Positions 1 to 13,994 of a DNA stretch of 13,994 nt are shown piece by piece (position 1 is the first letter of the stretch; the number at the start of each line of letters is the position of its first letter). The notes under the pieces were generated by a model, which was not told where the DNA came from, made no database searches, and saw only the letters and a list, made by a program, of their open reading frames with translations. The stretch lies in the IMG/VR virus record IMGVR_UViG_2585427783_000004; one strand, written 5' to 3'. A program made the translations under genes and the position numbers. This DNA is from a virus. Lineage: Duplodnaviria > Heunggongvirae > Uroviricota > Caudoviricetes.

Positions 1-1614
1 TTATTTATTGGTGAGTACTACGTTCCATGGCAGGAGTTCATCAACTCGGTTGGAAGGCCATTCCGGCAGTACGCTCAGGATATGGCGCAGATACGCTTCC
101 GGATCGATACCGTTCAGACGGCAGGTGCCGATCAGCCCGTACAACAGTGCTCCACGCTCGCCGCCGTGATCGCTGCCAAAGAACATAAAGTTTTTCTTTC
201 CGAGACAGACTGCACGAAGCGCTCTTTCCGCAGCATTATTATCCGCCTCCGCCAGACCGTCATCACTGTAATAACAGAGGGCATCCCACTGATTCAGTAC
301 ATAGCTGAACGCTTCGCCCAGTCTGGATTTTTTCGACAGCGTACCATTCTTCTCCACCATCCATTCATGCAGCGACGTCAGTAACACTTTGCTTCGCTGC
401 TGCCTGACGGCAAGACGCTCTGACTCCGGTAATCCCCGTATTTCATCCTCGATGGCGTACAGTTCACTGATTCGCTTCAGTGCTTCTTCTGCCGTCGCAC
501 TTTTGCTGCTGATGTATACATCGTGGATTTTTCGCCGGGCATGGGCCCAGCACGCAACTTCTGTCAGTGCACCACCTTCACGTTCTGCACTGAACAACCT
601 GTCGTAACCTGTGAACGCATCCGCCTGCAGGATACCCCGGAAGGGGCGGAGGTGTTGCTCCGGGTGTTTCCCCTGCCGGTTCGGCGAGTACGCGAACCAG
701 ACCGCTGGAGGAGATGACGAACCCACATTGCGATCATCCCGGACATACGTCCAGATACGCCCTGTTTTCGCCTTTTTCTGACCCGGTGCCAGTACCTTTA
801 CCGGTGTGTCATCAGTGTGAATCTTGCGGGTGTTCATTACATAACGGTACAGGGCATCATTCACCGGTGTCATTAACTGGCAGCACGCGTCAACCCAGTT
901 GGAGAGTAAGGCCCGGCTCAGTTCGACACCCTGGCGGGCAAAGATTTCACTCTGACGATACAGTGGCAGATGTTCGCAGTATTTTCCCGTTAACACGCGG
1001 GCAAGTAATCCGGGGCCCGCGATACCACGCTCTATCGGGCGGGACGGCGCCGGTGCTTCAACAATACAGTCACATTTTGTACAGGCTTTTTTTACCCGTT
1101 CTGTGCGGATCACTTTCAGGGCACTGCTCACCAGTTCCAGCTGTTCAGCGCTGACTTCCCCCAGATAATCCAGCTTACCGCCACACTCCGGGCAACAGCT
1201 TTCTTCTGGCTCCAGGCGGTGTATTTCACGGGGAAGGTGTGCCGGTAACGGACGACGATGGCGCGACTGTCGCAACTGGCGGGGAACCTGAGGATCGTCT
1301 TCCCGCCCACTGTAACGATCGCTGTCCTGTTCACGTTGTTTCAGCAGAGCCTCAGCCAGTTCAACTTCACGACGCAGTTTTTCAGAACGGGTACCGAACA
1401 GCATCCGGCGCAGTTTTTCTATCTGAGCCCGCAGATGTTCTATTTCCCGTTCATCTTCTTCGATCTTTTCTTCGGCACGTGTCAGTGCAGAGCGCAGGAA
1501 GGCTTCCGTCTCTTCAACCAGACTCAGTTGCTGGTCTTTCTGACGGAGGGCTTCAGCCTGCTCAGAGAGCAACCTTTCCAGCTCTGCGATGCGAATGAGG
1601 TATTTCTGACTCAT
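1..1614 (-). CDS. IS66-family transposase (TnpC / Orf3), 537 aa
   Basis: ATG at 1614, TAA at 3..1. Translation shows an N-terminal coiled-coil/leucine-zipper region, a CxxC...CxxC zinc-binding motif (CCPECGGK...CTKCDC) and a C-terminal DDE-type region, as in IS66 TnpC proteins (recognised from family signatures, not a search). Confidence 0.9.
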   Translation of the reverse strand: MSQKYLIRIAELERLLSEQAEALRQKDQQLSLVEETEAFLRSALTRAEEKIEEDEREIEHLRAQIEKLRRMLFGTRSEKLRREVELAEALLKQREQDSDRYSGREDDPQVPRQLRQSRHRRPLPAHLPREIHRLEPEESCCPECGGKLDYLGEVSAEQLELVSSALKVIRTERVKKACTKCDCIVEAPAPSRPIERGIAGPGLLARVLTGKYCEHLPLYRQSEIFARQGVELSRALLSNWVDACCQLMTPVNDALYRYVMNTRKIHTDDTPVKVLAPGQKKAKTGRIWTYVRDDRNVGSSSPPAVWFAYSPNRQGKHPEQHLRPFRGILQADAFTGYDRLFSAEREGGALTEVACWAHARRKIHDVYISSKSATAEEALKRISELYAIEDEIRGLPESERLAVRQQRSKVLLTSLHEWMVEKNGTLSKKSRLGEAFSYVLNQWDALCYYSDDGLAEADNNAAERALRAVCLGKKNFMFFGSDHGGERGALLYGLIGTCRLNGIDPEAYLRHILSVLPEWPSNRVDELLPWNVVLTNK

Positions 1615-1644
1615 GACCGTTTTTATAATGCGGTCAGGAGTTTT

Positions 1645-1995
1645 TTACAACATTGTCAGTGAGTTACGGCTGGATGTTTTTGGCTGACGCCAGTCCAGCT
1701 TATCGAGGAGCATTGCCAGTTGCGAGCGGGTAATGGATACCTTGCCGTCACGTACCGCAGGCCAGATAAACTGGCCTTCCTCCAGGCGTTTGGTGAACAG
1801 GCACAGACCATCAGCATCAGCCCAAAGAATTTTGACGGTGTCACCCCGTCGGCCACGGAAGATAAACAGGTGACCGGAGAAGGGATTATCATTCAGCACA
1901 TGTTGTACCTGTTCTCCCAGTCCGTTGAAGGATTTACGCATATCGGTAACGCCGGCAACGAGCCAGATACGGGTACCTGATGGGAGTGAGATCAT
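1645..1995 (-). CDS. IS66 Orf2 (TnpB-like accessory protein), 116 aa
   Basis: ATG at 1995 overlaps the tnpA stop (ATGA), TAA at 1645-1647. The MISLPSGTRIWLVAGVTDMRKSFNGL... N-terminus is characteristic of IS66 Orf2. Confidence 0.85.
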   Translation of the reverse strand: MISLPSGTRIWLVAGVTDMRKSFNGLGEQVQHVLNDNPFSGHLFIFRGRRGDTVKILWADADGLCLFTKRLEEGQFIWPAVRDGKVSITRSQLAMLLDKLDWRQPKTSSRNSLTML

Positions 1996-2417
1996 CTTCC
2001 CCTCCCGGTCAGTTCACGGATCAACACTGTGAGCAGCTCTGGCGATGGATTTTCCAGCGTCATGTTACCGTGACGGAATTCCACCTTGCAGGAACTGGCA
2101 CTGACTCTGGTCTGAGTGGAAGTGGATAAAGACGGCGCAATGGCCGCCACAGGTTCTTTCTGCTCATCCGGCGTTATTTCTACAGGTAATAATTCAACGC
2201 CAGTGTCAGAAGAGGTCGTTACCGGAAGACGCCGCGAAACACGCCCTTCGTTCTGCCAGAGCCTGAGCCATTTGAAAATAACATTATCATTGACGCCATT
2301 TTCACGTGCAATCTGTGCAACACAAGCTCCAGGTTGTGATGCCAGTTCCACCATACGAAGTTTGAATTCATTCGAATAGTTTTTACGAGGTTCTTTTCGC
2401 CAGTCCTGTAATTCCAT
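1992..2417 (-). CDS. IS66 Orf1 (TnpA-like, helix-turn-helix), 141 aa
   Basis: ATG at 2417; first gene of the IS66 triad; N-terminal HTH-like segment (CVAQIARENGVNDNVIFKWLR). Confidence 0.8.
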   Translation of the reverse strand: MELQDWRKEPRKNYSNEFKLRMVELASQPGACVAQIARENGVNDNVIFKWLRLWQNEGRVSRRLPVTTSSDTGVELLPVEITPDEQKEPVAAIAPSLSTSTQTRVSASSCKVEFRHGNMTLENPSPELLTVLIRELTGRGR

Positions 2418-2502
2418 ACTTAGATGTCCGTCTATATCAGATGGGCGTCTAAGTTACCAATTCTCGTCTGATGGCTACATACGGCGGTCAGTTTACGCTT
2501 AC

Positions 2503-3348
2503 GACAGAGTTATAATTTTTGCCAAAATTGGTAATGTCAGAATTTAATCCCTTAATTAAGTCTGCTGACGGCTTACCTTTTTGCCCCAGCTCCATTAGCT
2601 TCAATCCCATCTCATCTGAGTGAATTTGTGCTCGCTGAGCCCTGTCTAGTTGAGCGTTCTGGATATTTGCCCATCCTCTCGCGTTCTCCATGTCAGCCTG
2701 ACGCATACTTTCATCCAGTCGCCCTTGCTCAAGTCGACGACCTTCCATTTGATCTTTGATATCGAAATACTTCTCATGACCGAGAGAAAACAGCGCCAGA
2801 TTACCTGCGAAATGCTGGAAGCCCTGCGGGTCATTAACCTGCATTTCAGCAATAGTTTCTGGAGGGATACCTAAACGACGCATCTCCTGCTCATTATCCA
2901 TCATGAACCTGCCAAATGCGCCCTGACCAAGCGATGAGGCTACCTGTGCTTTGAGCGCCAGATTGCCATAATCATCCCTTTGAGCATCATCGACATAACT
3001 CATCCCTTTACGGACTTCCTCAAACTCTTCTGGGAATGCTGTAATAAGATTACGCATCTGCTCCCTGTCACCGGACGCATAAGCATCTGCATAACCTTTC
3101 TGGAATGCCGCTTTACGTTCCTGCTGTTGCTGCTGCTTATAAATGTCAGCAACTCCAGCCAGACCACGAAGACCTGTCAGAGCAACGTTATTTGCACCTG
3201 AGCGAGCCAGTTCATTGTTTTCGCGGATCAGACCAAGCGTTGCGTTAATGTCGCTTGCCTTTGGCGCATTCTCATTTTGCGCACCGATGCCAGCCAGAAA
3301 ACCACCAGAATTAATACCCTGTTGCCACGTAGCCATAAATTTACCCAC
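2503..3348 (-). pseudogene. Q/E/R-rich, predicted alpha-helical protein of unknown function; 3' end interrupted by the IS66 insertion
   Basis: Open frame from 3348 (alternative ATG at 3334, MATWQQ...) runs without a stop into the IS. The last codons and stop (V-S-V-N-TGA, 2502->2488) are encoded by the IS terminal repeat itself, so the native C-terminus is missing from the window. Poly-Q tract (QQQQQ) and coiled-coil-like composition. Confidence 0.55.
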
Positions 3349-3514
3349 GTCCAGTTAAAGTGTAAGCCAGCGCCTTATCCATTAATCCCCGAGCAATTTC
3401 GTGGATCGTTGGCGCAACTCCTACCTCTGATTTTTTACGCTGCTCCTCCTGAATTTTCTTTATCGCTTCCATTTGCTTCTCACTTATCAATACTGGCTTT
3501 ACTGAAATAGCCAT
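3341..3514 (-). CDS. Small protein (57 aa), possible DNA-binding regulator; first gene of an operon with the downstream helical protein
   Basis: ATG at 3514 preceded by AAGGGGGG about 5 nt upstream; 8-bp overlap with the next ORF (3348). The longer ORF-track version (start 3643) runs through a terminator hairpin, so the internal start is preferred. Confidence 0.45.
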   Translation of the reverse strand: MAISVKPVLISEKQMEAIKKIQEEQRKKSEVGVAPTIHEIARGLMDKALAYTLTGRG

Positions 3515-3548
3515 AACGCCCCCCTTAGAACTGTATAAAACAACAGTC

Positions 3549-3577
3549 ATTATAGTTTCATAAAACGCAACATTCAT
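3549..3577 (-). promoter_or_regulatory. Candidate sigma70-type promoter for the 57-aa/286-aa operon
   Basis: Perfect TATAAT on the minus strand (plus coordinates 3554->3549) about 35 nt upstream of the ATG at 3514; the -35 is weak (ATGAAT at 17-bp spacing), so it may be activator-dependent. Confidence 0.3.
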
Positions 3578-3610
3578 CATTGTGATTGCAAAATATGAAA
3601 CAAATAGCAC

Positions 3611-3642
3611 AAAAAAATGCCACCGTTCAGTAGCTGGTGGCA
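3611..3642 (-). terminator. Rho-independent terminator for minus-strand transcription
   Basis: On the minus strand: stem UGCCACC / GGUGGCA (7 bp, 3642-3636 and 3624-3618) with an 11-nt loop, immediately followed by a run of 7 U (3617->3611). Confidence 0.5.
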
Positions 3643-4008
3643 TCGTTCTGTATGTCAGGTTTTGACAGTTTTTTTATGGACTCTAAAAACTATATTTATG
3701 GAGTCGCATTACTCTTCACGGCAGGCGCTTTCCAGTTCTGCCCTTGCTTCTGGCTCCATTGGTAATTTGATTCGCGATCAGCTATGCGGATGGTTTGCTG
3801 AACAGGCATAACAACATCTCAGAGGCTATTTTTTGAACTACGAAAATTTCGTAGTGCTCACCTTCAAAAACGTCACGCCCTTGTACACTGGATTTTACAA
3901 AAGTCTCGTAAAACTCTTTGCTGTTCTGGGCTATGTGCCAAACCGCAGCGAATACCTCCGTCTGCCAGATGAGCAAAACATACCTTATAAAGAAAATCGC
4001 TGTTTTTG

Positions 4009-4112
4009 CTGTACCACCTGTACCACCATGTCACAAACCCTTGTGTGGCGCGGCCTGCAGGTGGTACAGGTGGGTAAAAATGACCTCTCCCCACCTGTAC
4101 AGACCTGTACCA
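4009..4112. repeat. Iteron array B: direct and inverted copies of GGTGGTACAGGT / tandem 9-mers TGTACCACC; candidate crr/ori-like site
   Basis: Tandem CTGTACCACC-TGTACCACC at 4009-4027, GGTGGTACAGGTGGGTAAAAATGACC at 4060-4085, ACCTGTACAGACCTGTACC at 4094-4112. Same core motif as array A, 1.1 kb away. Confidence 0.5.
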
Positions 4113-4117
4113 TTTAT

Positions 4118-4855
4118 TTAATTTTTACCCATAGCAGCACATAATCCCTTTTTTGAAATATTGAAAAATGCGTTCATTCTTCCCGCTGGCTTAACCTTGT
4201 AGCCGCTTGCCACCATCGCCGCAATAAATGCTCCGTTGGGGATATAGTGCGGGTGATCACTGTGCTGGTGGTTTATCTGGTTATATCGCTCCACTTCATG
4301 CTTCAACGTGTCAGATGTGGGGTTATCCTGCGGGAAGCTCTCAATCTGGGCATTACTCATCCCGTTGTCTCTGATCCATCTCAGGCAGCTTTTCGCCGAT
4401 ACGATAAATGACGGGTTATCAAGCGGGTTTTCCCAGTCCGCATTCCGGTTGTGGAGCGCCAGTCCGTCAAGGTTAAATTGTGGGTATTCAGCGGTAATTA
4501 CTGTCACTGCGTGGCGGATTTCAGTCTCGTCACAACATGGCTCATCTCCCACACCAGCAGGGTAATAATCTGAACCACCGGGACTGATACAGCGTTTACC
4601 ACTGAAAGGCCATTGCTTCGCCATTTCGGGTGTTGAGTGATTACCGTCGCTCCGTTCGCGCTGTGCCTCTGTCCACTGGCTGGCATATTCAGTAAATGAA
4701 ACTCTTTGCCCCTGGCGCATCCAGTGCGCAATCATAATTAAAGTGCGTTCCAGACTTTGGATGTCGCCAGCATTCCCGCACTGTGTAGCGAAACTTTTTA
4801 ATTCTTCGCGCTCCGTTCTGGTCATTCCCTGCAGTATGCAATAGTTATTGTTCAT
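4118..4855 (-). CDS. Hypothetical protein, 245 aa (His-rich segment QINHQHSDHPHY); function unknown
   Basis: ATG at 4855 preceded by AGAGGT 4 nt upstream; 11-bp overlap with the upstream 76-aa gene; no stop for 245 codons. I do not recognise the family. Confidence 0.7.
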   Translation of the reverse strand: MNNNYCILQGMTRTEREELKSFATQCGNAGDIQSLERTLIMIAHWMRQGQRVSFTEYASQWTEAQRERSDGNHSTPEMAKQWPFSGKRCISPGGSDYYPAGVGDEPCCDETEIRHAVTVITAEYPQFNLDGLALHNRNADWENPLDNPSFIVSAKSCLRWIRDNGMSNAQIESFPQDNPTSDTLKHEVERYNQINHQHSDHPHYIPNGAFIAAMVASGYKVKPAGRMNAFFNISKKGLCAAMGKN

Positions 4856-5075
4856 GTTTTACCTCTCTGATTTCTGCTGCCATATCTGTTGGCTCTATAC
4901 AGCCGTCCCGACTTGCCACGCAGGGAATAATGATTTCAACGGTATCGCCGTCAATACACATTTCAACATTCGCCCATGCCGCAATGGGTAGCCAGTCTGA
5001 ACGCCCCTCAAACCGTAGCTGCCAGCCAGAGGAAGAAGCTAACTGGCGCACTTTGTAAAATGGTGTGCTCATCAT
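4845..5075 (-). CDS. Hypothetical small protein, 76 aa; first gene of a two-gene operon
   Basis: ATG-ATG at 5075/5072 preceded by GAGGG about 8 nt upstream; overlaps the following 245-aa gene by 11 bp. Confidence 0.6.
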   Translation of the reverse strand: MMSTPFYKVRQLASSSGWQLRFEGRSDWLPIAAWANVEMCIDGDTVEIIIPCVASRDGCIEPTDMAAEIREVKHEQ

Positions 5076-5118
5076 TGGTTGTTCCCTCTCAGCCAGCCAG
5101 AAGAAATGCGTTTGTTAA

Positions 5119-5222
5119 TGGTATAGGTGGTACAGGTCTGGTATAGGTAAGATATTGACCTGTACCACTATAACGCATTGTTTTTAATGCTGAATTAGCA
5201 AAGTGGTATAGGTGGTACAGGT
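5119..5222. repeat. Iteron array A immediately downstream of the primase gene: two direct 18-bp copies GGTATAGGTGGTACAGGT plus an inverted partial copy; candidate origin of replication
   Basis: GGTATAGGTGGTACAGGT at 5120-5137 and 5205-5222; GGTATAGGT again at 5140-5148; inverted ACCTGTACCACTATA at 5158-5172. The array begins 30 bp after the primase stop. Confidence 0.5.
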
Positions 5223-5251
5223 AAAAACGATCTTCTTGTAAAAAGACTATA

Positions 5252-7603
5252 TTAAAAAACATCATAACCCCCCATACCGATCAGACGGGCAAACGCAGCC
5301 TGTAGAACTCCGACCTCTGGTAGTTCGTAGAACACGCCATTCCCTCGGTCTGGTCTTCCATGCTTCACCAGCCCCATTTGTGCAAGTGATTTACCCAGTA
5401 GTGATCTGGCAGCTGGTTCTTTAAGCTTTTCCCCACGCTCAAGCGACCACGCTACAAATCGACTAACCATATCCTTTGCAAACAAACGGACTTCGCCATT
5501 AAACGGAGGTTCATTGATTAGCTCGCCATAAAGAAACAATTCAACGCCAGACAGCCCCAGCAAGATTTCTTCACGTAAGGCATCGGTCTGTGGCGCTCGT
5601 TGAGGGTCAAAACCTGAGAGATCCACCCCTTTAAGATGCCAAAGCAACTTTGCGGCACCGCCATCATTAAGCCAACTGTACAGCCGATCAAAATACTCCC
5701 GGCTCTGTGCTTTTTCAGGAGATGGCTCAAGCACGAGATAGCGGCGCTCTCTTATCCCTGCCTGTAATACCTGTGTGCTGTTACTGGCAAATATCAACCG
5801 GGCAAAATTCGGCATTGGTTCAGCATCAATTCCCTTGCGCTCAAGGTTAAACGTCGGTTCGCTAATAATCGCTTTAAGTCTGTCAGCTTCAGACGGCTTG
5901 TGGATCGTCACTTCGTCAGCAAATACCAGTAGCTTGTTAGCAAGTATTGAATTGAAGCGCCCTGAAATATGTCCCGCCCCGTTAATGTGGGCGGCGTACT
6001 GCCCCAGTATTTGCAGCAGCGGTTTAACCGTTGTGCCTTTCCCTGTGCCCGGGACAGATTTCATCACGATTGCCACGGACGGTTTTTCATCAGGCTTTTG
6101 GATAATGTGCGCCATCCACTGGATAAGATATTGGTATGCCTCTTCATTACCGGCACAGACAACCTGCAACAGGTGATTAAGGTATACCGTGCAATCTCCT
6201 TCAATTGGTTCCAGTGCCAGCCCCTCATACAGATTAAAAACATCGTCAGGGCATTTGTCTGGTACTGGATAAAATCCTACGCCTCCTGGCTTGTAGTTCT
6301 TCCCACTCCATGACAGCCACGCCGATCCCGCCAGCTTTCTGGCGACTCTCGGTTTATGATGAAAATAATGCTGAAATTGTGATAAATCCTCGAAAACGTG
6401 CGATACACCGCCGGTTTGAGAAGGCTTTAGCGACACCCCCTTGTGTTTCCCGCCGATGGTGACATGCGTAAACGTCCGGTTGATTTCTTCGAGGACAGCA
6501 ATTTCATCATCGCTTAACACCTCGCCAGAACTGATCTCATTCAGCGCCCCGACTGACTGTTTGTGATTTTTCACCTGCGCCCCTTTCCCCCGTGGCTGGT
6601 ACATCGAATCTTTAAATGCTGCTGTGGCTGCCGCCAGCCCGTGTTGTTGGTGATAGTCGTTCCAGTCGGCTTTATAGTCAGTCGGTGGCAGAGACACCCA
6701 GCCAGCTACGGAAATAGCGGCCCTCTCTGCGGCATCTTTCCCCGTGTTGATCCCTCCACTTTCGGAGTTTCCTTGCTGGTGATCGTTATCTGCGGCAATG
6801 ATGATTTGTGCCTGTGGATATGTTCTGCGCATGACTTCCGCTACTGGCAACAGGTTGCCAGCGTCGATTGCTGCCACTGTCATTGCGTCAGGGCGAATTA
6901 AATGGCACGACAGGGCGGTAGCCACCCCCTCAGCAATTATGATGCTGTGAGGTCGTTTCTGTGCGTTTATGGCGTGATATGCCCCTCGCTTTGCTGAACC
7001 TGTCAGGAGTCTTTTTTCACCATGTGAGGTAATAGTCTGTGCTGCTGTGACTGCGCCGGATTTATCCACCAGCGCCAGCAACAGAGATCCATCGGGCAAC
7101 ACAGGGAATGTAAAATCACCTACCCCTTTCGCAACCAGATAATCAGATTTGCCGTTTACAGCCTTTCTGCGCATGTCATCAAACTGACGGGAAAACGTAT
7201 CCCGTCTTTGTTGTTCGTCCTTCTCTGCCCTTTTCAGGCGCTCCTGTTCGCGTCGCTGGCGCTCGGTTTCCAGTTGTTCCCGTTTCTGGCTGGTGGCTTC
7301 TGGTGTTTCCGTTGTCCGGTAATCAATACCCAGAACATCAGCGGCAAGAAGCGCCGCCTCTGTTGTGTCGCAGTTATTTACGCGTTTAATTAAATCCAGC
7401 CCATCACCAGCGCCGCACTGATTACAGATGAAGCTACCGCGCCCGTTGTCATCGAACCGGAATCGATCTTTGCCCCCACATGCAGGGCAGGGAGCATGAC
7501 GGCGCGGAGAGTCAGGGACATTTATGTTCAGGCAGTCCAGCACATGAGGCCAGTTGTTTTCAGACGCACTGATAACCTGACGGATAAGATCAATGTTTCG
7601 CAT
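5252..7603 (-). CDS. P4 alpha-like bifunctional primase/helicase (zinc-binding primase N-terminus, TOPRIM-like middle, P-loop NTPase C-terminus), 783 aa
   Basis: ATG at 7603. Zinc-ribbon motif CPACGGKDRFRFDD...CNQCG near the N-terminus, Walker A-like VPGTGKGTT, overall size close to P4 alpha (about 777 aa). Recognised from family signatures. Confidence 0.9.
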   Translation of the reverse strand: MRNIDLIRQVISASENNWPHVLDCLNINVPDSPRRHAPCPACGGKDRFRFDDNGRGSFICNQCGAGDGLDLIKRVNNCDTTEAALLAADVLGIDYRTTETPEATSQKREQLETERQRREQERLKRAEKDEQQRRDTFSRQFDDMRRKAVNGKSDYLVAKGVGDFTFPVLPDGSLLLALVDKSGAVTAAQTITSHGEKRLLTGSAKRGAYHAINAQKRPHSIIIAEGVATALSCHLIRPDAMTVAAIDAGNLLPVAEVMRRTYPQAQIIIAADNDHQQGNSESGGINTGKDAAERAAISVAGWVSLPPTDYKADWNDYHQQHGLAAATAAFKDSMYQPRGKGAQVKNHKQSVGALNEISSGEVLSDDEIAVLEEINRTFTHVTIGGKHKGVSLKPSQTGGVSHVFEDLSQFQHYFHHKPRVARKLAGSAWLSWSGKNYKPGGVGFYPVPDKCPDDVFNLYEGLALEPIEGDCTVYLNHLLQVVCAGNEEAYQYLIQWMAHIIQKPDEKPSVAIVMKSVPGTGKGTTVKPLLQILGQYAAHINGAGHISGRFNSILANKLLVFADEVTIHKPSEADRLKAIISEPTFNLERKGIDAEPMPNFARLIFASNSTQVLQAGIRERRYLVLEPSPEKAQSREYFDRLYSWLNDGGAAKLLWHLKGVDLSGFDPQRAPQTDALREEILLGLSGVELFLYGELINEPPFNGEVRLFAKDMVSRFVAWSLERGEKLKEPAARSLLGKSLAQMGLVKHGRPDRGNGVFYELPEVGVLQAAFARLIGMGGYDVF

Positions 7604-7615
7604 TCTGGCCCCCGT

Positions 7616-8218
7616 TTAGTGCGTCACTGGTGCTTCTGGGATGCCGTTTTCGTTTAGTTCGGCAATAAAGCTGTTGTGAAGATCGGCAAGCACTTCTCGC
7701 CCAAACGAAGTGAGTGTTCCCTGTTCGACATCGAACATGTTGCTGTAAAAAATGATGGCATTCTTTGTTCCGACATCAACACCATATTTCTCGATCATTG
7801 CGCCCTCAATGTTGTTTGCCATAGCGAGGCGCTCTGCTACTGGATACAGCGGCATGGCGACGATGCCATTGGAATAAACAGAAACCACGGAATGATTGCC
7901 ACTGTCATCAATAATGCTGACGGTGCCGTTTTCCTCTCTCATTTCCAGCATGAATACTGTTGCGATCAGCCATCTCCACATAATGACGTTATGCTGTGAT
8001 GTGTAATCGAAATATCCCTGGTTGCCGCCATCGGCAATAGCGAGATGTATTGACATACCTTCATCTGGTTTATCGTCATAATCCCCGGCATCCAGACGAT
8101 TTACGGCATCAATATATGAGACGGCCTCAACGCGTTCTGTCATGCCATCGTTGCTGCGGTACATGATGTTTACGCCGCCAGGCGTTGCTTCTGCATGGAA
8201 AGTTAAGAAATTATTCAT
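7616..8218 (-). CDS. Hypothetical protein, 200 aa, immediately upstream of and co-oriented with the primase
   Basis: ATG at 8218 (MNNFLTFHAE...) with GAGG 7 nt upstream; 8-bp overlap with the preceding small gene. The ORF-track start at 8323 is an upstream extension that would overlap the previous gene by more than 100 bp. Confidence 0.6.
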   Translation of the reverse strand: MNNFLTFHAEATPGGVNIMYRSNDGMTERVEAVSYIDAVNRLDAGDYDDKPDEGMSIHLAIADGGNQGYFDYTSQHNVIMWRWLIATVFMLEMREENGTVSIIDDSGNHSVVSVYSNGIVAMPLYPVAERLAMANNIEGAMIEKYGVDVGTKNAIIFYSNMFDVEQGTLTSFGREVLADLHNSFIAELNENGIPEAPVTH

Positions 8219-8432
8219 GTTTCGCCTCGCCTGAATGATTCTGTAACTCATATTTGCCCAACAATTCGTCCGCTTCCTGAATAGCTTCTGGTACGCCATT
8301 GAGCAGTGACATAACCGCGCCAATCATTAACTTGTCTCTGTTGCTTGGGCTGGCCCCTTCAAGCCAGAACCCTAAAACAGTCTGAACCTGTTCGATGCGA
8401 CATTGCGCTTCAATGAGCTGGATGTTGGTCAT
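8211..8432 (-). CDS. Hypothetical small protein, 73 aa
   Basis: ATG at 8432 with GGAGAG 6 nt upstream; ATGA overlap with the preceding gene stop (8429-8432). Confidence 0.55.
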   Translation of the reverse strand: MTNIQLIEAQCRIEQVQTVLGFWLEGASPSNRDKLMIGAVMSLLNGVPEAIQEADELLGKYELQNHSGEAKHE

Positions 8433-8692
8433 TTCGCACTCTCCACATCGATTAAACTGATATCTATCAGGGAGGTAACTTTTTGTAGCCAGCTATTGAT
8501 TACTGTCGCCTGTTCCCCTCCCACCGAGGGAATAATCTCATTCATCACATGAACCAGACCTGTGCGCGCTCTGGTAAGCCGTTCAGTCGCGCAATCTGCG
8601 GGAGTGAATGTGTCTGGATATGGCTCTTCGCGCCCCAGCAATGATTCAATTTCCAGCTCACACGGATGACGATAAATTAAGTTGATATTCAT
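8429..8692 (-). CDS. Hypothetical small protein, 87 aa
   Basis: ATG at 8692; ATGA overlap with the upstream gene stop; part of the chain of overlapping genes. Confidence 0.55.
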   Translation of the reverse strand: MNINLIYRHPCELEIESLLGREEPYPDTFTPADCATERLTRARTGLVHVMNEIIPSVGGEQATVINSWLQKVTSLIDISLIDVESAK

Positions 8693-8883
8693 TTTTCACC
8701 ACCAAGAATTACCAGCTCTGCACGGGCATCGTTAACCAAAGATGAGCACGCTTTAATCGCATCCACGACATCAGCAGCGTCCATTTCTTCAGCCGAAAGA
8801 CTGACAGCAACCAGGACAGCCGCTGCTTGCTCGATTAATTGAAGTGCGGACGTAAGGCGAGGGGTATTAATTGAGTTATTCAT
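8689..8883 (-). CDS. Hypothetical small protein, 64 aa
   Basis: ATG at 8883 preceded by GGGGG about 6 nt upstream; 8-bp overlap with the upstream gene. Confidence 0.5.
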   Translation of the reverse strand: MNNSINTPRLTSALQLIEQAAAVLVAVSLSAEEMDAADVVDAIKACSSLVNDARAELVILGGEK

Positions 8884-9094
8884 TGGTTGCCCCCGTTTTT
8901 ACTGGCATTTCGCCACCTTCCAGCAGGAAATGAACGTCACGAACGGCGAGATCCAATATCGCGAGTAACGCCTTCAGTCTTTCGTCTCGTGAGGGAGAGT
9001 TGCTCACCAGAATGTCGTTAATCACTTCTGTCAGTGTGATGATCTGGCTTGTGCGTTCGAGGGGATCCATATGCACATCGTAGGTTTTAATCAT
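8876..9094 (-). CDS. Hypothetical small protein, 72 aa
   Basis: ATG at 9094 preceded by GGAGGTG at ideal spacing; the start overlaps the stop of the upstream 64-aa gene (CATGATTAA). Confidence 0.55.
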   Translation of the reverse strand: MIKTYDVHMDPLERTSQIITLTEVINDILVSNSPSRDERLKALLAILDLAVRDVHFLLEGGEMPVKTGATNE

Positions 9095-9281
9095 GTGCCA
9101 CCTCCATGCGGATACGACCAGCAAAAAAGCAGACGTGATCGCGCACCAGAGAACGGCGAGCATCGCGTTCAGACTCGGCAGCAATATGATGAATTTTGGC
9201 GGTAATTGTCGGGCAATCGCGGCGAACTGCGGCGATAATCCAGATAAATTGCGTTTTTTGGGTAGGGGTAGTAGCCAGCAT
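9087..9281 (-). CDS. Hypothetical small protein, 64 aa; first gene of the early operon that ends with the primase
   Basis: ATG at 9281 preceded by a perfect AAGGAGG 7 nt upstream. All seven Arg codons are CGC/CGT and Leu is CTG, whereas the overlapping frame of the 355-aa ORF is full of CTA/TTA/ATA/AGG/CGA here. Confidence 0.55.
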   Translation of the reverse strand: MLATTPTQKTQFIWIIAAVRRDCPTITAKIHHIAAESERDARRSLVRDHVCFFAGRIRMEVAHD

Positions 9282-9477
9282 GTGGCAGCCTCCTTCAGAT
9301 AGCAGGTTACGCTACCACCGGAAACGCCAATTTCGCTGGTGGTAGCCCAGACAGGGTTGGCGTAACCGGCTCTGAAGGATACCGGCGCTTCCGAAGAAGC
9401 CCCCGCCTGAGCCACCATTGATTGACAAAGGCGCTGGATTATACACCAACGCCCAAAAAATGGGTGAGTCAGACCTA
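9282..9477 (-). promoter_or_regulatory. Promoter plus structured 5' leader of the early operon
   Basis: Minus-strand TATAAT at 9443->9438 (no good -35). Downstream leader has a UUCG-tetraloop hairpin (GCUUC-UUCG-GAAGC, 9400->9387) and a 9-bp stem hairpin (GCUACCACC ... GGUGGUAGC, 9346->9311) before the SD at about 9290. Confidence 0.35.
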
Positions 9478-9513
9478 CGACATAAAAAAAGACGCTTGGC
9501 GCGTCATATGTCG
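9478..9513 (-). terminator. Candidate rho-independent terminator at the end of the alpA-side transcription unit
   Basis: Minus strand: stem GACGC / GCGUC (5 bp, 5-nt loop) followed by U7 (9490->9484), nested inside a larger inverted repeat CGACAT ... ATGTCG (9478-9483 / 9508-9513). Confidence 0.4.
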
Positions 9514-9943
9514 CCTTCAGAATTTTTAGGACGCCAATCCCGGCACCCGTTTTATGAGGTGCCTTATAACCATAAACCGTGTTGCCGCATAACGGCAAGC
9601 TCTTTTTTATGGACTCCGAAAACTCACTATTGGAAGAACCAGAAGCACAGTACATCGCGCTCATTTCGTTAACGTCACGCGCGTGGACGAAGGTTTTTGT
9701 GGAGTCACTACACGAGCAGAGAAAGCCATCTACGACCAGAAATTCTCTGGCATAGCCGCTGACCTTCTCAACGCTAACACCATCGACCGTAATTTCTGAC
9801 ATAGTTAAGGCATCCGCTCCTACCACCAGCAAATGATAAACTTTGCTTGTATCTGCTGTATTAATGTCTGACTTTGCTGTCATATTGCTGGATTTTGGCG
9901 ACATACCAGCCAGTGAAAATATCTTCTTCTGGGCGGTTAGCAT
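9514..9943 (-). other. Open frame with a plausible start (GGAGG + ATG at 9943) but no in-frame stop before the terminator and promoter; possible decayed gene or chance open frame
   Basis: SD GGAGG 7 nt upstream of the ATG at 9943 and protein-like composition for about 120 codons, but the frame runs through a terminator, a promoter, leader hairpins and a better-supported gene in another frame without any stop. Confidence 0.25.
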
Positions 9944-10119
9944 TTGTTAACCTCCGCGAACTCCTTCATGAAACGTGCCAGCGGTTGTACGCATGGCGAT
10001 TGATACCCGTCGCGATAAAACGTCACTCGGTTGTGAGACACGCTTTCGACAGTAACGAGTGCTCCGTGGGCATCTTTGTAGCGTTTTTGAGGTTGTGGTG
10101 TTCCTGTCGGCTTAAACAT
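9937..10119 (-). CDS. Hypothetical small protein, 60 aa
   Basis: ATG at 10119 (MFKPTGT...) preceded by GGAGG 6 nt upstream; the start overlaps the stop of the antirepressor-like gene (ATGTTTAA). The ORF-track start at 10206 is a non-coupled upstream extension. Confidence 0.45.
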   Translation of the reverse strand: MFKPTGTPQPQKRYKDAHGALVTVESVSHNRVTFYRDGYQSPCVQPLARFMKEFAEVNKC

Positions 10120-10945
10120 GGACCGCCTCCAGACGCTTGGCGAGCCAGCGTTGCGACAGGCGGGGGAGTTCTCCTTTGCGCTGCTCATATTCCATGCCCA
10201 TATCAATTAACGTGATATTGGTGCTTTCGAGATATGAGAGGTGCTCAAGCTGTTCTGCGTTCATATGGTCGCGAGGTTCGCCAGAATAGCCATTTATCCG
10301 CGCCCACTGCTTAGCAGTTAGCCCACCAAGAACGATACGAGAAATCATATTGCTCTCGTTTGTGTAGTGGTGTTGCTGCGTCGTTTTCCCCATCTCGGCA
10401 CGGGCCATATTCAGCGCATCGCACATTGGCTTGAAGTTGTTTGCGGCACTGATACGGGCTTTTAGCTGGCGACGATAGCGGGCGGCGATTTCAGGCACGC
10501 TACGCTGTAATTCTTTCTCGCACTGGATGAAATAACGGCGGATAGCGCGACCCTGATCATTGCGTTCGATCATTGCCAGTTCTTTCGCCATTCCGACACT
10601 TAACAGATAGTCTTTGCCGGGTCTGCCAGACTGCTTAATCTTGCTGTAAGCCGCGTCATTCGGGCTTTTCCCCAAATTTGGGGAAATTGTTTTATGGACT
10701 GAGTAATCGTGCCCAATGGTGAAGTCATATTCAGAGATGCGATCAGTGATCCATGTAGAGAAGTCTTTTCCCACGCCCAACGCTTTGTGTAACGCTTTTG
10801 CGCTAACAATATTGGTTTCACGCCCGCCTATATGACCAGAAATAACCGGGACAATTGCGGCAAATTCATTACCGTTAATTGTGCCCAGAGAGGCGTTCAG
10901 ATGAGGGGCGGCCTCAGAAATTAATCTGCTTTTTTCGATGTTCAT
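10112..10945 (-). CDS. Phage antirepressor-like protein with N-terminal AntA/AntB-type domain, 277 aa
   Basis: ATG at 10945 with GGAGA 6 nt upstream. The N-terminal region (SAKALHKALGVGKDFSTWI...GRPGKDYLLSVGMAKELAMIE...GRAIRRYFIQCE) matches the conserved AntA-domain pattern as I recall it. Confidence 0.65.
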   Translation of the reverse strand: MNIEKSRLISEAAPHLNASLGTINGNEFAAIVPVISGHIGGRETNIVSAKALHKALGVGKDFSTWITDRISEYDFTIGHDYSVHKTISPNLGKSPNDAAYSKIKQSGRPGKDYLLSVGMAKELAMIERNDQGRAIRRYFIQCEKELQRSVPEIAARYRRQLKARISAANNFKPMCDALNMARAEMGKTTQQHHYTNESNMISRIVLGGLTAKQWARINGYSGEPRDHMNAEQLEHLSYLESTNITLIDMGMEYEQRKGELPRLSQRWLAKRLEAVHV

Positions 10946-10957
10946 TTTTAGTCTCCG

Positions 10958-11389
10958 TTAGGCGGCGTTAAACGCGTCCGGGTAGAGTTTCAGAATGTCG
11001 GCAATTTCCTGCTGAGAAAGTCCGTTGTGATCATTTATGTTCGCAAGATGGTTAACATGAGTGATCACTTTCAGAACATCACCACGGCAGGAGAAACGGT
11101 AGCGAAGGTGTGTTCCGATACCATCAGGATTCTTTTCGTCGATACGCTCCAGAGTGATTCCAAGCTGGCGTTCTAACTCTGTTGCATAGTTACGACCAGA
11201 AGACAGACGGCAGTAGCGAAGAATGTCATTTTCTGTCCATCCCTCTATACCAGTACGCAGCATATAGACTCGGGCACGATGCTTTTTCGGTGTGCGCTTT
11301 GGTGCTTGAAGGGATTTTGTAAGGGGCGTAATATCAGATACGCGAATATCTGAATTAGCCGCCTGTAATGGGCGGTTTTTCTTTTCCAT
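10958..11389 (-). CDS. Hypothetical protein, 143 aa, basic N-terminus; function unknown
   Basis: ATG at 11389 overlaps the alpA stop (ATGA); no stop for 143 codons; conventional codon usage. Confidence 0.6.
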   Translation of the reverse strand: MEKKNRPLQAANSDIRVSDITPLTKSLQAPKRTPKKHRARVYMLRTGIEGWTENDILRYCRLSSGRNYATELERQLGITLERIDEKNPDGIGTHLRYRFSCRGDVLKVITHVNHLANINDHNGLSQQEIADILKLYPDAFNAA

Positions 11390-11607
11390 CAGGCCACCTT
11401 CCCGCGGCGTTCTGCCAGCCAGTTATTAATTTCCACCGCATCAAACGCAGTCACGTTATCTGTTAGCTTCACTGGGCGTGGAAGAGTGCCATTTTTAACC
11501 CATCTATCAATAGTAGGCAGTGAAACACCTAGCAATTCCGGCATGCGAAAGCGACGGATGTATCCAGTTGTTGGGATAGCTGATGATGCTGGCTTGTGTA
11601 CTGTCAT
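11389..11607 (-). CDS. alpA: AlpA-family (excisionase-like, MerR-type HTH) transcriptional regulator, 72 aa
   Basis: ATG at 11607. Small protein with the motif MPELLGVSLPTIDRWVKNGTLPRPVKL...AFDAVEINNWL typical of AlpA/Xis-type regulators found next to P4-type integrases. Confidence 0.75.
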   Translation of the reverse strand: MTVHKPASSAIPTTGYIRRFRMPELLGVSLPTIDRWVKNGTLPRPVKLTDNVTAFDAVEINNWLAERRGKVA

Positions 11608-12078: not shown

Positions 12079-12729
12079 TTAGTCGAGATCGTGGACAGCT
12101 AATAAAGCCCGTGAGATTTTTTCTAGGAATGTGGCTTTTGCTATTCCTTTATGGGATATCCCTTCATCCTTGATTAAGGTTTCTATGTCACGGTATATAG
12201 CTGTGCGATTAGGTTTCCCATTTTGGATGTAGGAAGATGAGCCTGATTTTTTTATCAGCAGATGTACTATCAACCCCATCATTTTCATTGTCCCGTTTTC
12301 CTCATCCTGCTTTCTATGCTGCCCACGTCCGCTGCGGTTGGTTTCTTTGATGTAGTTTACTAACTGGAGTCCTCCAAGGTTTCGGGCTTTTTCTTCCCAG
12401 CCCTTGGTGCCACGCAAATCATCAATCGCTTCTGATATTTTCTGAACAATTATTTCTGGTGTATTTGTGTCAATAAATGGGTAAGAAGCTAAGAAAATAT
12501 CAAGGGCATGGCAAGGCTCATCTTTACTAGTTTTTTCACCTCTGTACACCTTGATAGCTCTGGCAAGATGAGTTCTGACAAAATCGACATATTCGAAATT
12601 TTCCTCAGGCACATCGCTAATGCGCATAGATGGGTTTAGGCCAGCCAAGGCCACAGCCATTTCATGAGGGGTAATCGATACAGATGAACAAAGCCGTTCG
12701 ATTGGCGATTTTCTCAAGATGTTGTTCAC
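12079..12729 (-). CDS. Hypothetical protein, 216 aa, translationally coupled to the integrase; AT-rich cargo gene of unknown function
   Basis: GTG start at 12729 overlapping the integrase stop (GTGA) with a strong GGAGG 5 nt upstream; TAA at 12079-12081. Visibly lower GC than neighbouring genes. No family recognised. Confidence 0.6.
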   Translation of the reverse strand: MNNILRKSPIERLCSSVSITPHEMAVALAGLNPSMRISDVPEENFEYVDFVRTHLARAIKVYRGEKTSKDEPCHALDIFLASYPFIDTNTPEIIVQKISEAIDDLRGTKGWEEKARNLGGLQLVNYIKETNRSGRGQHRKQDEENGTMKMMGLIVHLLIKKSGSSSYIQNGKPNRTAIYRDIETLIKDEGISHKGIAKATFLEKISRALLAVHDLD

Positions 12730-13994
12730 ATTTGCCTCCGGGCTTTATCGAATGGCGTTACGTTGTAGTCTTTCCCGCTTTCCAGTGCCACCAGCAGATC
12801 TGCCCACTGTGCCAGTGCTGCTTTACGCTCATCAAAATACTGATGACGGTTATAAATCCCCTCTACGCCCTTAATGCGATGATTGAGGCATCGTTCCGCC
12901 ACGACAGGATCAACACCCAATGCTGCTAAATGAGTACGTGCGGTGCGTCGGAAGTCGTGAATCGTGAAATTAGGCACATCCGGCATTTCGGCGCGAACCT
13001 TAGCCAGTGCTACGGGTAAAGTGCTTTCCTGAATATGTGGGATCATTCTGTTTTGCATCTTCCTGGCCGGAAGCACCCATGCGCTATTACATGAAAAGGT
13101 GTGTAGCTCTCTCAACCATTCAACGGCTGGGGAAGGTAGAGGTATATCAATAGGGTCTCCGTTTTTGCTGCGTTCTTCCGGCAAATGCCATACCGCACCA
13201 TCTAAATCAAACTCTTCCCATCGTGCGGCGCATAACTCCATCTTACGAACGCATAGTGCCAGCAATAGCTTAAATGTCAGTTCGTTCTGGCGGCTGAATC
13301 CTTTTGCGGTGCGCATAGCCTCGAATAGCCTGATAAGCTCATCGCGAGTTAGCCAACGGTCGCGGGAAACCTCTTTACCACCAGCATCAGATACTTCAAA
13401 CGCTGAACAAGGGTTTATCTCCAGAGCGTGGCGTTTTATCCCATAGTCAAAGATACGGCGTGTCCAGCGTAATACATCTGTTGCTATCGTTGGTGCTCCT
13501 CGGTCAACGATACCTTTTAACATGTCGTCAATGTGACGTGGCTTAACGTCCTCTACCTTCATATGCCCAATGCAGGGGTTAATATCCTTATCAATTCTCC
13601 GGCGAAGGATATCGGGATGTTTCCATCTCGGAAGTATCTGTCGCTCGAAGTATTCGGCGGCCAGATCTGAAACGCGCATGGCGTTTTTCTCAGCCTCCAT
13701 TTTTGCCAGTGCTTCAGCTTTTCGTTCCTGTTTTTCTGCTGCTACGTCATAGCCAAGAGCAACTCTGGCTGACAGCTCTTTTGCTGTTTCTCTGGCTTTT
13801 GATAGTGACAGTTCGGAGTAAGAGCCGATAACCATAGCCCGCTGTTTTCCTGCGAGCTTATATCGGAATCGCCAGAACGGGACTGTGTAGTTTTTGGGGT
13901 AGCAAATATAAAGGCCGTTGCCGTCTGCCTTGCCATCAAATCTGTCTCCCGCCTTTATCCATGCGCGGATCTGCATATCTGTGAGTTTTGGCAT
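12726..13994 (-). CDS. int: Tyrosine recombinase, P4-type phage integrase, 422 aa
   Basis: ATG at 13994 (window edge). N-terminal arm-binding region with RFRYKLAGKQRAMVIGSY...LSKARETAKEL, and C-terminal catalytic region with HDFRRTARTHLAALGV and a conserved Tyr (YNRHQY). Confidence 0.9.
   Translation of the reverse strand: MPKLTDMQIRAWIKAGDRFDGKADGNGLYICYPKNYTVPFWRFRYKLAGKQRAMVIGSYSELSLSKARETAKELSARVALGYDVAAEKQERKAEALAKMEAEKNAMRVSDLAAEYFERQILPRWKHPDILRRRIDKDINPCIGHMKVEDVKPRHIDDMLKGIVDRGAPTIATDVLRWTRRIFDYGIKRHALEINPCSAFEVSDAGGKEVSRDRWLTRDELIRLFEAMRTAKGFSRQNELTFKLLLALCVRKMELCAARWEEFDLDGAVWHLPEERSKNGDPIDIPLPSPAVEWLRELHTFSCNSAWVLPARKMQNRMIPHIQESTLPVALAKVRAEMPDVPNFTIHDFRRTARTHLAALGVDPVVAERCLNHRIKGVEGIYNRHQYFDERKAALAQWADLLVALESGKDYNVTPFDKARRQM

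What the first reader, a model, noticed from the sequence alone, without database searches (positions are those of the whole stretch)
4118..5075. Two-gene operon (76 aa + 245 aa) of unknown function sitting between two matching iteron arrays
Both genes have good ribosome-binding sites and overlap by 11 bp, so they form one translationally coupled unit. They lie between the primase-proximal iteron array and a second array sharing the motif GGTGGTACAGGT(GG)GTAAAAA. Neither protein resembles any satellite function I can name (Sid, Psu, Delta, epsilon, packaging redirection). The position just downstream of the replication module is where PICI-type elements carry accessory and helper-interference genes, making this a candidate undescribed interference or defence module.
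Basis: partly seen in the sequence, partly recalled or inferred. Interest (0 to 1): 0.6.

Follow-up and report, generated by a model that had tools for sequence, protein, structure and literature searches.

The report
Two orphan genes inside satellite replication origin
The two genes and the repeat arrays around them are real, but they sit inside the swappable replication-origin cassette of a known type of E. coli phage satellite, so they look like replication-linked accessory genes of unknown function rather than a defence or interference module.

Summary
A 76-aa gene (4845-5075, minus) and a 245-aa gene (4118-4855, minus) overlap by 11 nt and both have good ribosome-binding sites. The 10-mer TGGTAYAGGT occurs 9 times, only in two clusters that bracket the genes (0.01 expected by chance).

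The interpretation as a defence or interference module is not supported.

- **The island.** It is an EcCIMP1-like phage-inducible chromosomal island (PICI). EcCIMP1 itself and about 400 E. coli genomes carry a different helicase half and different iterons, and lack both genes.
- **The swapped cassette.** It spans window 3924-6581: the helicase/origin-binding half of the primase-helicase, both iteron arrays and both genes.
- **p76.** It occurs only with this helicase half and its GGTACAG iterons.
- **p245.** This is an unannotated two-domain protein (helical N-domain, winged-helix-like C-domain). In 12 of 14 distinct loci its relatives follow a replicase, across at least five replicase architectures. 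In 7 of 12 they precede an SSB gene. Its sequence tracks the host genus, not the replicase or the iterons.
- **Negative evidence for defence.** There are no PADLOC, Pfam, NCBIfam or PDB matches, and the slot shows no cargo variability.

Best reading: a P4-like split origin with a cassette-specific small protein, plus a replicase-independent, host-directed replication accessory. The biochemical function is inferred, not shown.

The parts
5252..7603 (-). Primase-helicase (783 aa): Zn-ribbon and Toprim primase N-half, DUF5906 SF3-type helicase C-half. The N-half (window 6582-7603) is shared with the DUF927-type replicase of EcCIMP1 and E. coli 042. The C-half (5252-6581) belongs to the swapped cassette.
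   Evidence: Pfam and PHROG matches. 33% identity to P4 alpha over aa 7-337 only. blastn against L019/L020 gives 88% for 6582-7603 and nothing for 3924-6581.
5119..5222 (.). Primase-proximal iteron array. It has six TGGTAYAGGT units: five on + (5119, 5128, 5139, 5204, 5213) and one on - (5158-5167). A 19-nt doublet repeats at 85-bp spacing. An AT-rich stretch at 5200-5259 (GC 0.28) is adjacent.
   Evidence: The position matches that of crr directly after alpha in P4.
4845..5075 (-). p76: an acidic (pI 4.6) small protein, predicted all-beta, with the invariant motif P-C...G-x-I-E-P-T-D. It is found only together with this helicase half and GGTACAG iterons.
   Evidence: (pLDDT 65).
4118..4855 (-). 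p245: a two-domain protein. The N-domain (about 10-100) is a four-helix unit with the motifs ERE, HWxRQ and FxEYAxQW. The C-domain (about 109-245) is winged-helix-like with the motifs SYGLKHxVE, YIxNGxFIxA and NAxFNIS. Each domain also occurs as a stand-alone protein.
   Evidence: (pLDDT 88, pTM 0.81).
4009..4112 (.). Distal iteron array. GGTACAG cores lie at 4009(-), 4018(-), 4063(+) and 4105(-). The array starts 5 nt after the p245 stop. An AT-rich stretch at 4120-4179 (GC 0.30) is adjacent.
3924..6581 (.). Exchangeable origin-specificity cassette: helicase/origin-binding half of the replicase, array 1, p76, p245 and array 2. In EcCIMP1 and E. coli 042 it is replaced by a DUF927 half plus GTTGGTTCA iterons with no embedded genes.
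3619..3634 (-). Terminator-like hairpin followed by a T-run, about 480 nt downstream of p245 and upstream of the next gene. It is a possible 3' end of the primase-p76-p245 transcript.
   Evidence: consensus scan only. No terminator-like site was found between the primase and p76.

Best explanation
The window carries an EcCIMP1-like phage-inducible chromosomal island. Its replication module is a mosaic: a shared primase N-half fused to a DUF5906 helicase/origin-binding half.

**The arrays (inferred).** The two TGGTAYAGGT arrays are the cognate binding sites of that half. They form a split origin, like ori plus crr of satellite P4.

**The two genes have different histories.**
- p76 is a small protein specific to this origin cassette. 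It always travels with this helicase half and its iterons, and always lies next to an array. It most likely modulates the replicase-origin complex (inferred, low confidence).
- p245 belongs to a widespread family with no Pfam, NCBIfam, PADLOC or informative PHROG annotation. The family's usual place is right after a mobile-element replicase and origin, and often right before an SSB gene, whatever the replicase type. Its sequence follows the host genus rather than the replicase or the iterons, and it is mildly acidic. It therefore probably does not read the iterons. It more likely acts as a replicase-independent accessory of element replication that contacts a host component such as SSB or the replisome (inferred).

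**Expression (inferred).** No terminator-like site was found between the primase and p76, so both genes are probably expressed by read-through from the primase operon after helper induction.

**What is shown:** gene reality, repeat statistics, cassette boundaries, synteny and the fold class. **What is inferred:** the function of the arrays as an origin and the roles of both proteins.
For: **Island identity.**
- 94-95% DNA identity to EcCIMP1 and E. coli 042 over the int-proximal genes.
- EcCIMP1 is an experimentally mobilised PICI (PMC11773190).

**Cassette.**
- Window 3924-6581 has no counterpart in L019/L020, which carry a DUF927 half, GTTGGTTCA iterons and no embedded genes.
- About 130 E. 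coli genomes carry the cassette, and all listed matches include both genes.

**Iterons go with the replicase C-half.**
- GGTACAG with the window-type C-half.
- GTGTTCAT with D5_N/Pox_D5.
- GTAGGGATA in L012.
- AAAGTGGGGAG with AAA_25.

**Split arrays with variable content between them.**
- p76 plus p245 in the window and L005.
- p76 only in L011.
- The whole primase operon plus p76 in L002, with the arrays 4.9 kb apart.
- P4 has crr directly after alpha and ori about 4.5 kb away.

**p76.** It is present in all four lineages with the window-type C-half and in no other locus. This includes L011, whose primase N-half is of another type.

**p245 context.**
- The upstream neighbour is a replicase in 12 of 14 distinct loci (DUF5906, D5_N/Pox_D5, AAA_25, DUF7146, VapE-like).
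- The downstream neighbour is SSB in 7 of 12.
- Distant stand-alone C-domains lie next to PriCT_2/VapE, AAA_25+DUF7146 and Prim-Pol replicases.

**p245 tracks the host.**
- L002 versus L009: p245 is 94.6% identical, while the replicases share only the N-half at 46% and have different iterons.
- Window versus L003: p245 is 67% identical, with an unrelated AAA_25 replicase.
- Window versus L002: same replicase type, but p245 is only 44% identical.

Against: - No experiment and no homology links either protein to a replication activity.
- EcCIMP1, which lacks both genes, is a functional PICI, so neither gene is generally required.
- p245 relatives also occur in two Mu-like transposable prophages that have no iteron origin. 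A few contexts are unrelated to replication.
- The co-occurrence of p76 with the helicase half may be no more than physical linkage inside the cassette.
- Tracking of the host genus by p245 could reflect local recombination pools rather than a host partner.
- The winged-helix similarity is weak (best Foldseek PDB E-value 1.5).
- Neither array has been shown to act as an origin.
Confidence: 0.45

Rival explanations
1. Helper-interference or host-takeover factor. p245, with or without p76, would block helper-phage or host chromosome replication, or another early process. It would be placed in the early operon so that it is made as soon as the island is induced.
For: - It is co-directional with, and directly follows, the induced replication operon.
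- It occurs in the early regions of Mu-like prophages, which hold host-takeover genes.
- It tracks the host genus.
- It is acidic and has no DNA-binding signature.
- It is dispensable for the PICI life cycle, as judged from EcCIMP1.
Against: - The slot is invariant, not variable.
- The recurrent replicase-X-SSB order across unrelated replicons is more easily explained by a replication role.
- It does not resemble any known interference protein.
Confidence: 0.25
2. p245 is a winged-helix transcription regulator that controls the downstream operon (orf57 and the ejection-protein genes) or helper genes.
For: - The gene precedes a terminator-like site and a separate downstream operon.
Against: - The helix in the recognition position (NGAFIAAMVA) is hydrophobic, and the protein is acidic at pI 6.1.
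- The downstream genes differ completely among loci (SSB, ProQ, DUF2786, ejection proteins), while p245 stays conserved.
Confidence: 0.12
3. An anti-phage defence or toxin-antitoxin/abortive-infection pair carried as satellite cargo.
For: - It is a small gene overlapping a larger gene in a satellite.
- Satellites often carry defence cargo (general knowledge; PMC13586616 is listed).
- A few distant C-domain homologues lie near Abi, SieB or Cap4-nuclease genes.
Against: - PADLOC gives no match for either protein.
- p245 occurs without p76 in most loci, and the two are separated by an iteron array in Xenorhabdus, so they are not an obligate pair.
- There is no cargo turnover at this position in about 130 genomes.
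- The pair lies inside the replication cassette.
- No enzymatic or toxin motif was detected.
Confidence: 0.06

Closest known systems
EcCIMP1 (E. coli PICI mobilised by the P22-like phage Kapi1; Pick et al. 2025, ISME J, PMC11773190)
   Same: - Same island family: AlpA-like regulator, AntA antirepressor, DUF4222, Ash, the same small ORFs, the primase N-half, orf57 and P22-type ejection-protein homologues.
- 94-95% DNA identity over about 3.8 kb of EcCIMP1 (L020) and about 4 kb of E. coli 042 (L019).
   Different: - EcCIMP1 has a TOPRIM+DUF927 replicase, a single GTTGGTTCA iteron cluster and no p76 or p245.
- It integrates at tRNA-Thr, not next to yicC.
Satellite phage P4 replicon (alpha primase-helicase with ori and crr)
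   Same: - The Zn-ribbon/Toprim primase N-domain is 33% identical to that of alpha.
- One iteron cluster lies directly after the replicase gene and a second lies at a distance.
- The spacing and the content between the clusters are flexible.
- A DUF5375/Cnr-like gene lies upstream of the primase in relatives.
   Different: - The helicase/origin-binding half is unrelated to that of alpha.
- The iteron is a 10-mer, TGGTAYAGGT, not TGTTCACC.
- The arrays are about 1 kb apart and bracket two genes.
- There are no sid, psu, delta or epsilon homologues.
- The cis requirement for both arrays is untested.
SaPI/PICI Rep-ori modules (the C-terminal part of the replicase matched to its cognate iterons; established knowledge from Ubeda et al. 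2007 PNAS, recalled and not read here)
   Same: Origin specificity is exchanged as a cassette made of the helicase C-terminal part plus iterons placed just 3' of the replicase gene.
   Different: SaPI-type origins are compact: two iteron sets flank a short AT-rich spacer, with no genes inside. Here genes are embedded between the sets.
PHROG families phrog_9576 and phrog_17839 (C-domain) and phrog_4935 (N-domain), all of unknown function
   Same: Weak to moderate profile matches of p245 or its stand-alone-domain relatives.
   Different: These families have no functional annotation. The match of p245 itself is marginal (E 7e-4, residues 184-238).

Membership tests
Phage-inducible chromosomal island, EcCIMP1-like | Integrase at one end, with an AlpA-family regulator downstream of it | tested here: met
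   The integrase ORF is 12726-13994(-) and the AlpA-like HTH is 11389-11607(-). RefSeq annotates both. In L005 the integrase is 88.5% and the AlpA-like protein 88.9% identical to the window's, and they carry Phage_integrase and Phage_AlpA (weak) hits. The window HTH matches P4 orf88/Vis at 9e-6.
Phage-inducible chromosomal island, EcCIMP1-like | Own replicase (primase-helicase) with an adjacent origin | tested here: met
   Pfam Zn_Ribbon_Prim, Toprim_3 and DUF5906. Iteron arrays lie next to the gene. Origin activity itself was not tested.
Phage-inducible chromosomal island, EcCIMP1-like | Sequence relatedness to the experimentally defined element | tested here: met
   blastn gives 94.6% over window 7618-11399 and 93% over 3366-3917 against EcCIMP1 (L020).
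Phage-inducible chromosomal island, EcCIMP1-like | Excision, replication and packaging induced by a helper phage | not testable with these tools
   This was shown for EcCIMP1 with Kapi1, not for this variant.
P4-type bipartite origin (ori + crr) | Two separated clusters of the same iteron, one directly 3' of the replicase gene | tested here: met
.
P4-type bipartite origin (ori + crr) | Replicase homologous to P4 alpha over its helicase and origin-binding domains | tested here: not met
   Only the primase N-domain aligns (aa 7-337, 33%).
P4-type bipartite origin (ori + crr) | Both clusters required in cis and bound by the replicase | not testable with these tools
   This needs replicon assays and EMSA.
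Known anti-phage defence systems | Match to a defence-system protein model | tested here: not met
   PADLOC-DB gives 0 families for either protein at E up to 0.1.
Satellite defence hotspot | Variable cargo between conserved flanks in closely related elements | tested here: not met
   All listed E. coli genomes with the cassette carry the same two genes at 97.6% identity or more. The alternative state is a whole-cassette swap without genes.
Type II toxin-antitoxin pair | Obligate two-gene unit whose partners co-occur | tested here: not met
   p245 occurs without p76 in L003, L007, L009, L025-L029 and L031. In L002 and L011 an iteron array and about 245 nt separate the two genes.
Winged-helix DNA-binding proteins (for the p245 C-domain) | Winged-helix topology | tested here: inconclusive
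Winged-helix DNA-binding proteins (for the p245 C-domain) | Polar or basic recognition helix and DNA binding | tested here: not met
   The helix at the recognition position is NGAFIAAMVA, and the domain pI is 6.15. Binding itself was not tested.

The most novel reading that the evidence does not exclude
p245 would define a new, widespread class of mobile-element replication accessory. It would be a two-domain, host-adapted adaptor encoded between replicase/origin and SSB, and it would couple otherwise unrelated self-loading replicases (SF3, AAA_25, Prim-Pol, VapE-type) to the host replisome or SSB, or divert the host or helper replisome to the element. p76 would be a dedicated regulator of one particular helicase-iteron pair, encoded inside a split origin.
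Probability: 0.3. Interest if true: 0.6.

Novelty: new variant of a known kind. Interest (0 to 1): 0.36.

Why it matters
**Effect on the original finding.** The result removes a tempting but unsupported "new defence module" call. It replaces that call with a concrete picture of how this PICI family swaps origin specificity. The recombination point lies inside the replicase gene, and the helicase half, the iterons and two embedded genes move together.

**What it flags for follow-up.** It identifies an unannotated protein family with 837 hits at E up to 0.001 in the representative library. Members sit beside mobile-element replicases of several architectures, often before an SSB gene.

**If p245 proves to be a host-replisome adaptor or hijacker.** It would explain how diverse satellite and island replicases plug into the host machinery. 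It would also be a useful marker for replication modules.

**If it proves to be inert for replication.** The interference reading would then gain weight.

Tried and rejected
**Sequence searches that gave nothing.**
- Pfam, NCBIfam, PADLOC and PDB sequence searches, with single sequences and with profiles, found nothing for either protein.
- PHROGs gave only a marginal hit to a family of unknown function.
- tblastn of p245 found no match in 50,697 phage records and only two partial matches in plasmids.
- A literature search for the RefSeq accessions found no paper.

**Structure searches.**
- afdb50 was unavailable.
- The p76 model was too poor (pLDDT 65) for a fold search.
The same restriction ruled out a fused co-fold of the pair, which I did not attempt.

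**Other leads that failed.**
- Domain-fusion ("Rosetta stone") scans of longer relatives gave no informative partner domains.
- The search for related loci with the diverse C-domain alignment failed because it had no conserved stretch.

**Hypotheses considered and rejected.**
- *p245 or p76 is a P4 Cnr, epsilon, Sid, Psu or Delta analogue.* There is no similarity. The Cnr/DUF5375-like gene is instead the ORF upstream of the primase.
- *p245 is the iteron-binding protein.* It stays 67-95% identical across loci whose iterons are unrelated.
- *The pair is a TA module.* The two genes are not obligate partners.

Full report
**1. Observation**

The window holds two co-directional minus-strand ORFs: 4845-5075 (76 aa, "p76") and 4118-4855 (245 aa, "p245"). 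On the coding strand, GAGAGGGA precedes the p76 ATG by 7 nt and AGAGAGGT precedes the p245 ATG by 5 nt. The p245 start and the p76 stop share ATGAACAATAA, an 11-nt overlap. RefSeq annotates both as hypothetical proteins.

Both have homologues in other Enterobacterales. For p245 these reach down to 41% identity. For p76 they reach 40-47% with in-frame gaps only. They are genuine genes.

The 10-mer TGGTAYAGGT occurs 9 times in 13,994 bp. All copies lie at 4016-4112 or 5119-5222, with 0.01 expected and 0 of 200 shuffles reaching 9.

**2. What the element is**

The window reads as follows on the minus strand:
- integrase (12726-13994);
- an AlpA-like HTH protein;
- an AntA antirepressor;
- DUF4222;
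- an Ash-family protein;
- several small ORFs;
- a 783-aa primase-helicase (Zn_Ribbon_Prim, Toprim_3, DUF5906);
- the two genes of the finding;
- a 57-aa ORF;
- a P22-type ejection-protein gene cut by an IS66 element.

The intact island lies next to yicC in about 130 complete E. coli genomes.

It belongs to the family of EcCIMP1. EcCIMP1 is a PICI shown experimentally to be induced and transduced by the P22-like phage Kapi1 (PMC11773190). The window is 94-95% identical to EcCIMP1 and to the E. coli 042 island over the regulatory genes.

**3. The pair lies inside an exchangeable origin cassette**

EcCIMP1 (L020), E. coli 042 (L019) and about 400 other genomes share window 3366-3923, 6582-7603 (the primase N-half) and 7618 onwards. 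They have nothing similar to 3924-6581. In its place they carry:
- a DUF927 helicase half;
- a single cluster of GTTGGTTCA iterons;
- no embedded genes.

The recombination point is therefore inside the replicase gene. The unit that moves is the helicase/origin-binding half plus both arrays plus p76 and p245. Within E. coli, every listed genome that has this cassette has the same two genes. This is the opposite of a cargo hotspot.

**4. The arrays behave like a split origin**

Each replicase C-half type comes with its own iteron in the same place:
- GGTACAG with the window-type half;
- GTGTTCAT with D5_N/Pox_D5;
- GTAGGGATA in L012;
- AAAGTGGGGAG with an AAA_25 helicase.

This co-variation is what is expected if the arrays are the replicase's origin sites. 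It matches the SaPI Rep-ori principle, which I cite from established knowledge and did not test here.

In the four lineages with the window-type half there are always two arrays, but what lies between them differs:
- p76 plus p245 in the window and L005;
- p76 alone in L011;
- the entire primase operon plus p76 in L002, where the arrays are 4.9 kb apart.

P4 has the same logic: crr lies directly after alpha and ori lies about 4.5 kb away. The window replicase shares only the primase N-domain with alpha (33%). The resemblance is therefore architectural and does not make this a member of the P4 replicon family. Each array has an adjacent AT-rich stretch. Origin activity and the need for both arrays remain untested.

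**5. p76**

- It has no family, PDB or defence match.
- Only 12 relatives were found among 5.8 billion clusters.
- It is acidic (pI 4.6).
- It is predicted to be all-beta, but at low confidence (pLDDT 65).
- tblastn finds it in exactly the loci that carry the window-type helicase half and in no other. This includes L011, whose primase N-half is of a different type.

It is thus part of the origin-specificity cassette and always abuts an array. My inference is that it modulates this replicase-origin complex. The co-occurrence could equally be mere physical linkage.

**6. p245**

*Structure.* AlphaFold gives a confident model (pLDDT 88, pTM 0.81) with two parts: a four-helix N-domain and a C-domain of three helices plus a beta-hairpin.
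- Foldseek finds nothing significant in the PDB or BFVD.
- The helix at the recognition position is hydrophobic and both halves have pI of about 6.1. Sequence-specific DNA binding is therefore doubtful.

*Family.* A profile search of 1.84 billion representatives finds 837 proteins at E up to 0.001. Most are stand-alone N-domains (about 90-115 aa) or C-domains (about 120-140 aa). None of the tested relatives has a Pfam annotation for these domains.

*Context.*
- In 12 of 14 distinct loci the gene upstream is a replicase (DUF5906, D5_N/Pox_D5, AAA_25, DUF7146 or VapE-like).
- In 7 of 12 the gene downstream is SSB.
- Distant stand-alone C-domains lie next to PriCT_2/VapE, AAA_25+DUF7146 and Prim-Pol replicases.

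*Exceptions.* Two relatives lie in Mu-like prophages and a few lie in unrelated neighbourhoods.

*What p245 follows.* It follows the host genus, not the replicase.
- Xenorhabdus L002 and L009 have 94.6% identical p245 but different helicase halves and iterons.
- E. coli window and L003 have 67% identical p245 with unrelated replicases.
- Window and L002 share the replicase type but only 44% p245 identity.

So p245 is not the iteron reader. It is also not an obligate partner of p76.

**7. Mechanism**

Best-supported reading (confidence about 0.45): the two arrays are a split, P4-like origin for the DUF5906 helicase half. p76 is a cassette-specific modulator. p245 is a replicase-independent accessory of element replication that works through a host component such as SSB or the replisome. 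Both genes would be expressed by read-through from the primase operon, because no terminator-like site lies between the primase and p76 and one lies at 3619-3634.

Shown here:
- the genes and repeats are real;
- the cassette boundaries;
- the synteny;
- the fold class.

Inferred:
- origin function of the arrays;
- the roles of both proteins.

Rivals:
- a helper or host takeover/interference factor (0.25);
- a winged-helix regulator of downstream genes (0.12);
- a defence or TA module (0.06).

The defence/TA rival fails three tests made here: no PADLOC match, no obligate pairing, and no cargo turnover. EcCIMP1 functions without either gene. Whatever the two proteins do is therefore specific to this replicon type or is auxiliary.

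**8. Novelty and verdict**

The island family and the replicase-plus-iteron principle are known. Three things were not described in anything I could find:
- the split-array cassette with embedded genes;
- the intragenic swap point in the replicase;
- the p245 family with its replicase-X-SSB synteny.

I rate it as a new variant of a known kind and of moderate interest (0.36).

Noticed in passing
window 1-2502 (IS66 family: ORFs 1-1614, 1645-1995, 1992-2417, all minus) and 2488-3348 (minus): An IS66-type element is inserted into the island's P22-type DNA-ejection protein gene (Pfam Inj_translocase, 8.5e-74). Only about 278 of 448 codons remain, by comparison with the intact island L001, where similarity starts at window 2503.
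   Followed up: partly
L019 6313-10971; L020 5481-10649; L001 8551-11996: EcCIMP1-like PICIs carry homologues of the P22 ejection-protein cassette: a DUF2824 protein, a 225-aa protein, a 'phage DNA ejection protein' of 440-473 aa, and a 700-906-aa protein that has a lytic transglycosylase domain in EcCIMP1. They carry no capsid or terminase genes. Pick et al. 2025 mention these as possible packaging genes. A satellite that supplies its own ejection proteins would be unusual.
   Followed up: partly
window 6582-7603 versus 5252-6581; L011, L009, L012: The primase-helicase genes are mosaics. The Zn-ribbon/Toprim N-half and the helicase/origin-binding C-half recombine independently. The N-half is 88% identical at the DNA level to that of the DUF927 replicase of E. 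coli 042. The N-half of L011 is 81% identical to that of L009, while its C-half is of the window type.
   Followed up: yes
L002 2826-2927: In Xenorhabdus ehlersii one of the two GGTACAG arrays lies 4.9 kb from the other. It falls inside the 5' part of the ORF called as the Ash-family gene (2690-3841), so either that ORF's start is over-called or the array overlaps coding sequence.
   Followed up: no
L002 7495-7521 and 7952-7978: A 27-nt sequence (CAGAAAGCAACCTTTCATTCTCTGGCG, 89% identical copies) sits just upstream of both the p76 and the p245 start codons in Xenorhabdus. It may be a shared leader or operator.
   Followed up: no
window 5087-5105 and 5015-5034 (minus strand); L005 7752, 7820, 8864: The motif CTGGCTGGC recurs just upstream of the p76 RBS and again inside p76 (codons for S-G-W-Q). 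In L005 a degenerate third copy (CTGGCTTGC) lies in the distal array. It could be a second protein-binding site or a coincidence of coding constraint.
   Followed up: no
window 3341-3514 (minus); L003 10272-10445; L009 12178-12354; L019 10988-11149: A conserved basic protein of 53-58 aa (pI 9.5; MAISVKPVLISEKQ...) opens the operon downstream of the replication cassette in several island types, whatever the replicase. It may be a small regulator.
   Followed up: no
window 7616-8218 (minus): The 200-aa acidic protein (pI 4.35, phrog_1515) upstream of the primase is 32% identical to a DUF5375 protein in L002. DUF5375 is the family of P4 ORF106 (RefSeq annotation), which I know as Cnr. This ORF, not p76, is the likely copy-number regulator analogue.
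   Followed up: partly
L007 1748-9955; L038: p245-family genes also occur in Mu-like transposable prophages that have an rve transposase, a MuB-like AAA_22 protein and Mor. In L007 the gene is directly followed by a DUF2786/DUF7168 gene. The same neighbour follows a stand-alone N-domain gene in L014.
   Followed up: partly
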